Made by a program: the position numbers and the translations under genes
In this document: piece after piece, positions 53,318-53,716 of the stretch
How the letters are laid out: the number at the start of each line of letters is the position of its first letter
How positions within the stretch are numbered: position 1 is the stretch's first letter
The notes under the pieces: model-generated
What the model was told of the DNA's origin: nothing
Databases searched by the model: none
What the model saw: the letters and a program-made list of their open reading frames with translations, nothing else
IMG/VR virus record: IMGVR_UViG_3300042894_001948
Reading direction: 5' to 3' (one strand)
Length of the DNA: 64,000 nucleotides
DNA from: a virus
Taxonomy: Duplodnaviria > Heunggongvirae > Uroviricota > Caudoviricetes

Positions 53318-53716
53318 GGTTGGCAGGCCGGATTGTAATACTGCTGGGTCAAGTTCTGGAAACGAGAACCGCTGCTCAAATCGTTGATTGTGCAACGACT
53401 TTTAAACACTACCCTCACGCGAGAGGATGCCAAAAGCAACGTCCATTGACGTCAATGCTTTGTTTAATCGGAATGGTGGACTAGCTGTATTTGAAACAGA
53501 ATACATAGTTCTTAAATCTGTAGAATACTAGTAATAGTAACAATTTCATAATGATATACATAGCACCTGAAAGTTATATCTTAAAAATACCTGTAAGTAG
53601 TGGTCCGGAGGTAGCCAATATGAGAGTCTACAGTCACGTAAAATCTTACTGCGATTCCATGGCGATGGGGTGAAATCATGCATCCAAGTTTATTAGGGTG
53701 CATCTGACTTCAAAAG
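53318..53716 (+). ncRNA. Candidate large structured RNA of unknown family (or structured origin element)
   Basis: At least nine stems with G-U pairs and GAAA/GCGA/GUAA tetraloops; about 48% GC over 53321-53480 by hand count; no long ORF; boundaries approximate. Confidence 0.55.

What the first reader, a model, noticed from the sequence alone, without database searches (positions are those of the whole stretch)
53318..53716. About 400 nt densely structured non-coding element right behind RNase HI: candidate new large phage RNA
Seen: this is the only long gap (53235-53928) in an otherwise wall-to-wall coding window, and it is GC-enriched (about 48% over 53321-53480 by hand count). It folds by eye into serial stems: GGCAG/CTGCT (53322-53345); GTTCT-G-GAAA-C-G-AGAAC (53353-53369); TCGTTG/CAACGA (53381-53398); CCTC/GAGG with a GCGA loop option (53413-53426); AAAGCA-ACGTC-CATT-GACGT-CAA-TGCTTT (53433-53461); a 13 bp bulged stem (53478-53511); TACTA-GTAA-TAGTA (53526-53539); GATATA/TATATC (53553-53580); and a multibranch domain closed by AGTCA/TGACT (53632-53709) holding GTAA/TTAC, CCAT/ATGG and ATGCATCC/GGGTGCAT arms. 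G-U pairs and GNRA loops fall on the + strand, which points to an RNA transcribed rightward. Candidate promoters are the sigma70 site at 52711 and GTAAATA at 53266-53272. Inference: a functional large ncRNA that I cannot assign to any class I recognise (not tRNA, tmRNA, RNase P or hammerhead).
Basis: partly seen in the sequence, partly recalled or inferred. Interest (0 to 1): 0.8.

Follow-up and report, generated by a model that had tools for sequence, protein, structure and literature searches.

The report
Large folded RNA gene in phage
The gene-free stretch behind the RNase H gene of this uncultured freshwater giant T4-like phage is a real gene for an intricately folded RNA of about 420-580 bases; it is a divergent branch of a widespread aquatic-phage RNA family that is missing from RNA catalogues and has no known function.

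Summary
The 694-nt gap 53235-53928 is the longest in the window. It has no conserved ORF and is as conserved as the neighbouring replication genes in 11 distinct relatives. An 18-helix model on the + strand pairs 98.3% of cells. It has 13 compensatory pairs against 4.3 in shuffles and 0-2 in slid controls. Single-sequence folding energy is unremarkable (z = -0.45), and no Rfam family matches.

The unit reads: T4-type late-promoter box, 416-nt core, 11% GC linker, a hairpin with tandem G-A mismatches, a terminator, then the next gene's late promoter.

RNase HI is an incidental neighbour. Relatives without rnh keep an RNA gene in the same slot, after gp47/gp46 and a small nuclease. In two of them it begins with the Polynucleobacter-1 motif (RF01718).

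The window RNA shares its 3' tandem-GA hairpin with those RNAs and with more than 100 IMG/VR contigs. It shares its 5' hairpin with seven RNAs of the "twin-box" family, which earlier reports of this scan described on other DNA. Its middle is unique to one clade of about 372-kb lake phages, with one copy per genome.

Function is unknown. An RNA-primed origin is disfavoured. It is a new variant of an uncatalogued family.

The parts
53265..53272 (+). Late-promoter-like box TGTAAATA. The likely start of the RNA is about 53279 (inferred by the T4 rule).
   Evidence: The box is invariant in position. It reads TATAAATA in L015 and L011 and CATAAATA in L013. Eleven NATAAATA boxes lie in the window's gaps, nearly all just upstream of late structural genes.
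53274..53303 (+). Sigma-70-like site TAGACA-18-TATATT. This is a weak alternative promoter.
   Evidence: It is a consensus match only. It is removed by a 20-nt deletion in L015 and L013.
53309..53724 (+). Conserved structured core of the RNA (416 nt, 39.9% GC).
   Evidence: 87-99% identity in 8 relatives. 96 pairs with 98.3% of cells paired and 13 compensatory pairs. No conserved ORF and no 3-periodicity.
53322..53345 (+). P1 hairpin GGCAG/CUGCU with a conserved 14-nt loop. This 5' hairpin is shared with seven twin-box RNAs.
   Evidence: nhmmer E 8e-7 to 7e-5 against L153, L240, L245, L193, L225, L178 and L232. An A-U to G-C compensatory change splits 6 against 6 sequences, with 100% of cells paired.
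53381..53398 (+). P4 hairpin UCGUUG/CAACGA.
   Evidence: 3 of 6 pairs show compensatory changes, including a UA/UG/CG series.
53402..53467 (+). Three-way junction. P5 (53402-07/53462-67) encloses P6 (53413-16/53423-26, GNRA-type loop) and P7 (53433-43/53448-61).
   Evidence: P7b has 2 compensatory pairs with a GC/GU/AU series and P6 has 1. P5 is invariant, so it is untested.
53478..53511 (+). P8, a variable-length hairpin.
   Evidence: It is replaced by a shorter stem in L010 and a 27-nt longer stem in L012. The base helix covaries AU/UG.
53518..53633 (+). Central domain. Long-range P9 (53518-24/53627-33) encloses P10 (53526-30/53535-39, GUAA loop) and P11 (53544-48/53621-25). P11 in turn encloses P12 (53553-58/53575-80) and the putative P13 (53588-92/53609-13). 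The domain includes a 36-nt invariant stretch.
   Evidence: 30 pairs with 100% of cells paired. P11 has 3 compensatory pairs and P10 has 1. Slid controls pair 27-47%. Model R1 finds one copy per complete genome.
53634..53724 (+). 3' domain. It holds P16 (53654-60/53665-71) and P17 (53679-85/53696-702) followed by UCUGAC (53703-08). P17 is flanked by near-identical boxes GUGAAAUCA (53670-78) and GUGAUAUCU (53716-24). The closing helix is unresolved.
   Evidence: Pair counts are. The arrangement resembles box-hairpin-UCUGAC-box of twin-box RNAs. However, the boxes are not identical and model R2 does not detect the domain.
53725..53805 (+). A/U-rich linker (11% GC). It is poorly conserved and carries indels.
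   Evidence: A comparable A-rich linker is seen in L122, L128 and L087.
53806..53828 (+). Tandem-GA hairpin. Its order is outer stem GUAUU/AAUAC, internal loop GA/GAA, a 2-bp stem, then a GAUA loop.
   Evidence: The same shape folds in 10 of 11 RNA types, each with a different outer stem. Motif GAGYGNNARCGAA occurs only at the 3' ends of the large RNAs in G001, G002 and G007. It is found in more than 118 IMG/VR contigs.
53829..53852 (+). Intrinsic terminator: an 8-bp hairpin followed by UUUU.
   Evidence: Terminator scan. It is conserved, and the stem sequence differs between RNA types while the hairpin is kept.
53871..53878 (+). Late promoter AATAAATA of the downstream 278-aa gene. It is not part of the RNA but bounds the unit.
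   Evidence: It is conserved in relatives even though the downstream gene is replaced.

Best explanation
This is a stand-alone gene for a large, highly structured non-coding RNA on the + strand. The unit runs in this order: a T4-type late-promoter box (53265-72), a 416-nt multi-domain core (53309-53724), an A/U-rich linker, a hairpin with tandem G-A mismatches (53806-28) and an intrinsic terminator (53829-52).

It is a divergent branch of a large uncatalogued family of RNAs of aquatic T4-like phages. Earlier reports of this scan called that family the 'twin-box' RNAs, and some members begin with the Polynucleobacter-1 motif. These RNAs always sit after the gp47/gp46 recombination nuclease genes and a small nuclease gene.

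Shown here: the gene is real, the fold, the strand, the boundaries, one copy per genome, and the shared 5' hairpin, 3' module and genomic slot.

Inferred: the RNA acts in trans as a folded particle. The invariant 3' tandem-GA hairpin would be a common handle for one protein or processing factor, and the clade-specific middle would carry the specific activity. It is probably made late, and possibly also early by read-through from the rnh promoter. The biochemical function is unknown.
For: Conservation:
- The core is 87-99% identical in 8 relatives. That equals or exceeds rnh, while the downstream gene is replaced in most relatives.

Not coding:
- There is no conserved ORF, variable sites are not 3-periodic, and frame-breaking indels occur.

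Fold:
- 96 pairs have 98.3% of cells paired. There are 13 compensatory pairs against 4.3 in shuffles (0/500 reach it) and 0-2 when slid.
- The central domain is 100% paired.

Strand:
- 81 G-U cells give 98.3% pairing on + against 90.9% on -.

Unit boundaries:
- The upstream box is TATAAATA or CATAAATA in 3 relatives.
- Late genes in the window carry NATAAATA.
- A terminator follows.

Copy number:
- There is one copy in each complete 372-kb genome.

Family links:
- The same slot in phages without rnh holds RF01718 RNAs at 115 and 93 bits.
- The 3' motif occurs only at large-RNA 3' ends in whole genomes.
- It is in more than 118 IMG/VR contigs, and 88 of 99 have a paired outer stem.
- The 5' hairpin is shared with 7 RNAs that lie behind PDDEXK_15 or SegE-type GIY-YIG genes and gp46.

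Presence in RNA libraries:
- Contigs from three RNA libraries of two studies cover the element.
Against: - No transcript ends or abundance could be measured. RNA-library contigs cover the flanking genes at similar low depth and could be DNA carry-over.
- Single-sequence MFE is no better than shuffles.
- The window's own promoter box has G at the second position (TGTAAATA). No terminator separates rnh from the RNA, so the RNA could be a processed 3' UTR.
- The middle 300 nt cannot be aligned to any other member of the wider family.
- RF01718 does not match the window RNA. Models R1 and R2 do not cross-detect the subfamilies. The two boxes are only 7 of 9 identical.
- Family membership therefore rests on the two ends and on synteny.
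- Several helices (P5, P12, P13) never vary and are untested.
- All 11 full sequences come from one clade.
Confidence: 0.72

Rival explanations
1. RNA-primed replication origin. The structured transcript would act like ColE1 RNA II or the T4 oriF/oriG R-loop RNAs. It would hybridise in the A/T-rich tract and be cut by the adjacent phage RNase HI to prime DNA synthesis.
For: - It lies directly behind an RNase HI gene within the replication/recombination module.
- An 81-bp tract of 11% GC follows the core, and hairpins follow that tract.
- Each complete genome holds two or three RNA genes of this build, as T4 has several origins (my own knowledge of T4).
- In G001 the RF01718 RNA lies at the global cumulative GC-skew minimum.
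Against: - Relatives keep an RNA gene in the same slot, with the same 3' module, but without any rnh.
- The upstream box is a late-promoter type, whereas T4 origin transcripts are early or middle (my own knowledge of T4).
- The A/T tract is the least conserved part and the folded core the most conserved.
- In G001 this RNA (97 kb) is not at a skew extremum. The nearby local minimum at about 104 kb is the divergent gp55/baseplate junction.
Confidence: 0.1
2. Cis-acting untranslated region. The fold would be the 3' UTR of the rnh (or nuclease) mRNA, stabilising it or controlling read-through into the late genes. It would not be a trans-acting RNA.
For: No terminator lies between the rnh stop and the core. 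In L122 and L123 the RNA starts within about 30 nt of the nuclease stop codon, and I saw no late-promoter box there. One RNA-library contig spans the end of rnh and the core (X19, 53165-53615).
Against: - 416 nt with long invariant unpaired stretches is far more than an mRNA stabiliser needs.
- The upstream gene differs between relatives (rnh, PDDEXK_15, GIY-YIG) while the ends of the RNA stay the same.
- The G001 paralogue has its own sigma-70-type promoter.
- The downstream gene has its own late promoter after the terminator.
Confidence: 0.1
3. DNA-level element (recombination or packaging signal, or single-stranded DNA fold) or a cluster of tiny protein genes, rather than an RNA.
For: The slot borders a hypervariable region where the downstream gene is swapped among relatives. 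Small ORFs of 34-54 codons exist.
Against: Strand-asymmetric G-U pairing and GC/GU/AU series fit an RNA of the + strand. The ORFs are broken in relatives: the frame that is open for 57-61 codons is cut to 31 in L008, and the 34-codon ORF meets a stop at codon 3 in L010.
Confidence: 0.04

Closest known systems
Polynucleobacter-1 RNA motif (Rfam RF01718; Weinberg et al. 2010, PMC2864571) and the longer 'twin-box' phage RNAs that earlier reports of this scan described around it
   Same: - Same genomic slot, after gp47/gp46 and a small nuclease gene.
- Similar length.
- Same A-rich linker, 3' tandem-GA hairpin and terminator.
- Same 5' hairpin as one twin-box subtype.
- A hairpin followed by UCUGAC lies between two similar boxes.
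   Different: - RF01718 does not match the window RNA at E<=10.
- The middle 300 nt (P4-P13) is not alignable to other members.
- The boxes are not identical and do not co-vary.
- The window RNA has a late-type promoter box, whereas the paralogue in G001 has a sigma-70-type promoter.
- Both kinds coexist in one genome.
GOLLD and ROOL, large ornate RNAs linked to phages and prophages (Rfam; cryo-EM in bioRxiv 10.1101/2024.12.08.627333)
   Same: It is a large multi-domain RNA with GNRA-type loops and long invariant unpaired stretches. It is phage-encoded and of unknown function.
   Different: There is no sequence or structure match to either Rfam model. It is smaller. It is not next to tRNA genes. 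Multimer formation is untested.
ColE1 RNA II and the T4 oriF/oriG R-loop primer transcripts
   Same: It is a long structured transcript followed by an A/T-rich tract, next to an RNase HI gene.
   Different: It has a late-type promoter box. Its homologues lack rnh. It is not at a GC-skew extremum. The folded part is far more conserved than the A/T tract.

Membership tests
Polynucleobacter-1 (RF01718) | Match to the Rfam covariance model at or above 37 bits | tested here: not met
   No RF01718 hit in 53100-54000, even at E<=10 with permissive filters. The same model scores 115 and 93 bits in the syntenic gaps of L122 and L123, and 60-61 bits elsewhere in G001 and G002.
'Twin-box' aquatic-phage RNA family (scan-internal name, uncatalogued) | Position after gp47/gp46 and a small nuclease gene, before late genes | tested here: met
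   The window order is gp47, gp46, a 99-aa ORF, PDDEXK_15, rnh, then the RNA. Relatives keep the order with PDDEXK_15 or SegE GIY-YIG directly before the RNA.
'Twin-box' aquatic-phage RNA family | 3' module: A-rich linker, tandem-GA hairpin (GAGYGNNARCGAA), terminator hairpin | tested here: met
   The window has one hit, at 53811-23. G001 has 2 hits, both at large-RNA 3' ends. G002 has 2 and G007 has 1, against 0-1 for the reversed-pattern control. Ten of 11 types give the same fold with different outer stems.
'Twin-box' aquatic-phage RNA family | 5' hairpin with the loop GCC-R-G-W-UUGUAAUA (one subtype) | tested here: met
   nhmmer E 8e-7 to 7e-5 against 7 RNAs that carry twin boxes. P1 shows an A-U to G-C compensatory change with 100% of cells paired.
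'Twin-box' aquatic-phage RNA family | Two boxes of about 7 nt that are identical to each other and change together | tested here: not met
   No pair of 6- or 7-mers is both identical within sequences and variable between them. The best candidates, 53670-78 and 53716-24, are 7 of 9 identical. Model R2, built on the box domain of one subtype, does not hit the window. That test is weak because the model depends on the box sequence.
GOLLD / ROOL / other Rfam large RNAs, group I and II introns, RNase P, tmRNA, SRP, 6S | Match to the family's covariance model | tested here: not met
   There are 0 matches at gathering score in the whole window. Only chance-level hits (snoRNA, miRNA, c4-a1b1) appear at E<=10. 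ARAGORN finds no tRNA or tmRNA.
RNA-primed origin (ColE1 RNA II / T4 R-loop type) | Replication initiates at the locus, with an RNase H-dependent primer end | not testable with these tools
   Only indirect tests were possible. The RNA is not at a GC-skew extremum in complete genome G001, homologous slots lack rnh, and the promoter box is of the late type.

The most novel reading that the evidence does not exclude
Aquatic T4-like phages would carry a modular class of RNA genes built as constant 5' hairpin, exchangeable 300-nt folded core, then constant tandem-GA 3' handle. They would be fixed next to the Mre11/Rad50-type recombination genes. The constant ends would recruit one phage or host factor. 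The exchangeable cores, of which this window's is an undescribed type, would be catalytic or target-specific modules. Such a module could be a ribozyme or an RNA decoy, acting during the switch from replication to packaging or against a host defence.
Probability: 0.2. Interest if true: 0.85.

Novelty: new variant of a known kind. Interest (0 to 1): 0.62.

Why it matters
Large RNAs with this much conserved tertiary-looking structure are rare. Those already understood are mostly ribozymes or the cores of ribonucleoprotein machines.

This one adds a new core type to a family that seems common in lake and marine T4-like phages, yet only a 141-nt piece of that family is catalogued (Polynucleobacter-1).

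The work here supplies three testable handles:
- a covariation-supported fold;
- a probable late promoter and a terminator that define the transcript;
- a short invariant 3' hairpin, shared by more than 100 phage contigs, that could be used to pull down the partner.

It also removes a tempting but misleading link to RNase HI.

Tried and rejected
- **Folding energy.** Z-scores were -0.45 on the + strand and -0.65 on the - strand, so they are uninformative.
- **GenBank phages.** There was no DNA match to the gap. Only an 80-bp resolvase match to PA5oct-type phages appeared.
- **RNAalifold long-range pairing.** It paired the 5' end (53318-45) with 53590-53616. I rejected this because the CCGG/CCGG part is broken in L008 and L010, and it crosses the strongly covarying P11.
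- **Ribosum alifold and single-sequence folds.** They disagree on long-range helices.
- **Exact-word scans.** IMG/VR, JGI metagenomes and GTDB genomes gave only the same clade or nothing. Thirteen of 19 metagenome hits were chance matches.
- **Distant RNase H loci.** L017-L041 and the 408-kb phage G003 contain no copy.
- **Read laying.** Contigs of two lake metatranscriptomes and one seawater RNA library cover the element. Depth equals that of the flanking genes, and contig ends sit at variant sites, so they give no ends, strand or level.
- **MAFFT alignment with other slot RNAs.** Only the two ends align.
- **Twin-box tests.** An exact-repeat search for twin boxes has a high background in shuffled controls. 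Model R2 did not detect the window's 3' domain.
- **Group I intron idea.** It came from a GAGUCUACA string that resembles the R element. I rejected it because the topology is wrong, the locus is intergenic and there is no model hit.
- **CsrA-sponge idea.** GGA motifs are no more frequent than chance by my rough estimate.
- **14-nt palindrome at 53444-57.** It is not maintained in relatives, whereas hairpin P7b covaries.
- **Candidate pseudoknot.** GUAAG 53593-97 with CUUAC 53645-49 is invariant, so it could not be tested.

Full report
**What is there**

The window is part of an uncultured T4-like jumbo phage. Around the finding, the + strand reads in this order:
- late sigma factor gp55;
- a homing-endonuclease-like gene;
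- gp47 (SbcD-like) and gp46 (SbcC-like);
- a 99-aa ORF;
- a PDDEXK_15 resolvase-like nuclease;
- RNase HI (PF00075);
- a 694-nt gap (53235-53928);
- a 278-aa ORF with no credible family match;
- a baseplate-hub gene on the - strand;
- a 1395-aa gene that the first-stage notes read as the tape measure.

The gap is the longest in the window; the next longest is 365 nt. GC is 47.5% over 53321-53480, against 34.8% for the whole window and 11% in 53725-53805.

**Not a known RNA and not coding**

Rfam gives no match at gathering scores in the whole window. At E<=10 in the gap it gives only chance-level hits. ARAGORN finds no tRNA or tmRNA.

Open frames in the core are short. They change length between relatives and are broken by indels. 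Variable sites fall 50/42/39 over the three codon phases.

**Conservation**

RNase HI led to 16 close IMG/VR loci. Together with metagenome contigs they give 11 distinct full-length copies of the gap.

The core 53309-53724 is 87-99% identical to the window. That is as good as or better than rnh (85-95%). The downstream 278-aa gene has a counterpart in only one lineage.

The runs that hold this DNA are lake or freshwater metagenomes. No GenBank phage matches the gap, and no GTDB genome holds the conserved 20-mer that was scanned.

Model R1 finds exactly one copy in each of two complete 372-kb genomes with terminal repeats. It finds none in a 408-kb relative.

**Fold and strand**

Single-sequence folding energy is no better than shuffled controls.

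An 18-helix model has 96 pairs with 98.3% of cells paired. It has 13 pairs with compensatory change. Shuffles average 4.3, with 0 of 500 reaching 13, and slid controls give 0-2.

The best-supported helices are:
- P4 (53381-86/53393-98), 3 compensatory pairs;
- long-range P11 (53544-48/53621-25), 3 compensatory pairs;
- P7b, 2 compensatory pairs;
- P10, P6, P2 and P8.

P9 (53518-24/53627-33) is a perfect 7-bp long-range helix with one G-C to G-U change. The central domain alone is 100% paired, against 27-47% in slid controls.

81 G-U cells and several GC/GU/AU series put the RNA on the + strand: 98.3% of cells pair on + against 90.9% on -.

P5, P12 and P13 never vary, so they are untested. The closure of the 3' domain is unresolved.

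**Transcription unit**

It reads TATAAATA in L015 and L011 and CATAAATA in L013. Eleven NATAAATA boxes lie in the window's gaps, nearly all just upstream of late structural genes. The box is therefore a T4-type late promoter, slightly off consensus in this lineage.

By the T4 rule the start would be near 53279 (inference). A sigma-70-like site (53274-53303) is deleted in two relatives.

No terminator separates rnh from the core, so early read-through from the strong promoter at 52711 is also possible.

After the core come four features in order:
- a poorly conserved A/U-rich linker;
- a conserved 23-nt hairpin (53806-28);
- an 8-bp terminator hairpin with a U run (53829-52);
- the late promoter of the next gene (53871-78).

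RNA-library contigs from three runs cover the element. Depth is similar to the flanking genes, so they show presence only.

**RNase HI is incidental, and the RNA belongs to a larger family**

Searching with the resolvase found relatives at 49-68% identity. Five of them (L122, L123, L127-L129) lack rnh but keep a 480-730-nt ORF-free gap between the nuclease and the hub or late genes. In L122 and L123 that gap begins with the Polynucleobacter-1 motif, at 115 and 93 bits. Earlier reports of this scan describe long 'twin-box' RNAs in T4-like phages behind small nuclease genes, whose first third is that motif.

All these gaps end in the same module as the window: an outer stem, GA, a 2-bp stem with a GNNA or GAA loop, GA(A), the outer stem, then a terminator hairpin. 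The outer stem differs in every type but always pairs.

The motif GAGYGNNARCGAA occurs as follows:

| Sequence | Hits | Where |
|---|---|---|
| Window | 1 | 53811-23 |
| G001 (complete genome) | 2 | 3' end of this RNA and of the RF01718 RNA |
| G002 (complete genome) | 2 | 3' end of this RNA and of a weaker Polynucleobacter-1-like RNA (28.7 bits, below the cut-off) |
| G007 | 1 | slot RNA |
| Reversed-pattern control | 0-1 | - |

Of the 99 with full flanks, 88 have a paired outer stem, where my rough estimate for chance is about 21.

Among those 99, seven RNAs share the first 40-60 nt of the window RNA (nhmmer E 8e-7 to 7e-5). They include the P1 hairpin with its conserved loop, and an A-U to G-C compensatory change separates the two groups. 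These seven carry co-varying twin boxes and lie behind PDDEXK_15 or SegE-type GIY-YIG genes and gp46.

The window RNA therefore shares its 5' hairpin, 3' module, size and slot with the twin-box family. Its middle 300 nt aligns with nothing else. RF01718 and the two models do not cross-detect the subfamilies. Its two candidate boxes are only 7 of 9 identical. Both kinds of RNA coexist in one genome.

**Mechanism**

Shown: this is an independent, conserved, folded RNA gene of the + strand with defined borders.

Inferred: it acts in trans. The invariant 3' hairpin is a common handle for a protein or processing factor. The clade-specific core carries the activity.

The RNA-primed-origin idea is disfavoured for four reasons:
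- homologous slots lack rnh;
- the promoter box is a late type;
- the A/T tract is the least conserved part;
- in G001 the RNA (97 kb) is not at a GC-skew extremum, and the local minimum at about 104 kb is the divergent gp55/baseplate junction.

A pure 3' UTR role is unlikely, because the upstream gene varies while the RNA ends do not.

**Verdict**

This is a real and structurally rich RNA. It is new to catalogues and is a new core variant of a family this scan has met before on other DNA. Its function is open.

Noticed in passing
L087:1437-1977 (G001:322.5-323.1 kb); L086 and L088/L134 in G002: The window clade's complete genomes also carry one or two Polynucleobacter-1-type RNA genes elsewhere, scoring 60-61 bits (a further one scores 29 bits). 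In G001 the gene has a sigma-70-type promoter (TTGACA-17-TATAGT) and the same tandem-GA hairpin and terminator. It lies at the global cumulative GC-skew minimum of the genome (about 320 kb).
   Followed up: partly
L135-L246 (IMG/VR loci): More than 118 viral contigs hold the exact 3' hairpin core with covarying outer stems and a following terminator hairpin. By my quick HMMs, 21 of 99 are Polynucleobacter-1-like, 12 share this RNA's 5' hairpin, and about 55 are neither. That suggests further core types.
   Followed up: partly
window 53929-54765 and the equivalent position in L001-L016: The gene just downstream of the RNA is swapped among close relatives. Only the L009 lineage has a homologue of the 278-aa ORF, although the late promoter in front of it is conserved. 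The RNA gene therefore sits at the edge of a hypervariable slot.
   Followed up: no
window gaps, e.g. 51844, 53872, 55815, 55840(-), 46175(-), 40628(-), 24085(-), 20460(-): Late genes of this phage are preceded by NATAAATA boxes 20-50 nt before the start codon. This is the T4-type late promoter with a free first position.
   Followed up: partly
L127:6568-7060, L129:6574-7050, L128:6514-6985: The slot RNAs of these more distant relatives have a different 5' domain (GUUUGGUYGRGGU...). It matches neither RF01718 at gathering score nor the window RNA. L128 combines that 5' domain with twin boxes AGAUAAU, which suggests domain shuffling.
   Followed up: no
L124:6517-6657 and L126:6517-6677: In the 55%-identity relatives the gap after the nuclease is only about 140-160 nt. 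It still looks hairpin-rich, and model R1 gives a borderline hit further on in L124 and L125 (7059-7157, E 0.9).
   Followed up: no
window 47052-48800: A 582-aa homing-endonuclease-like protein (PHROG 3339/559, DUF7487, DUF559-like) sits between gp55 and gp47.
   Followed up: no
window 53328-53520 (run X20): A seawater RNA library holds a 192-nt contig of the 5' part of the RNA. It carries the same six differences as the L008/L009 lineage, including both sides of the P7b compensatory pair.
   Followed up: no
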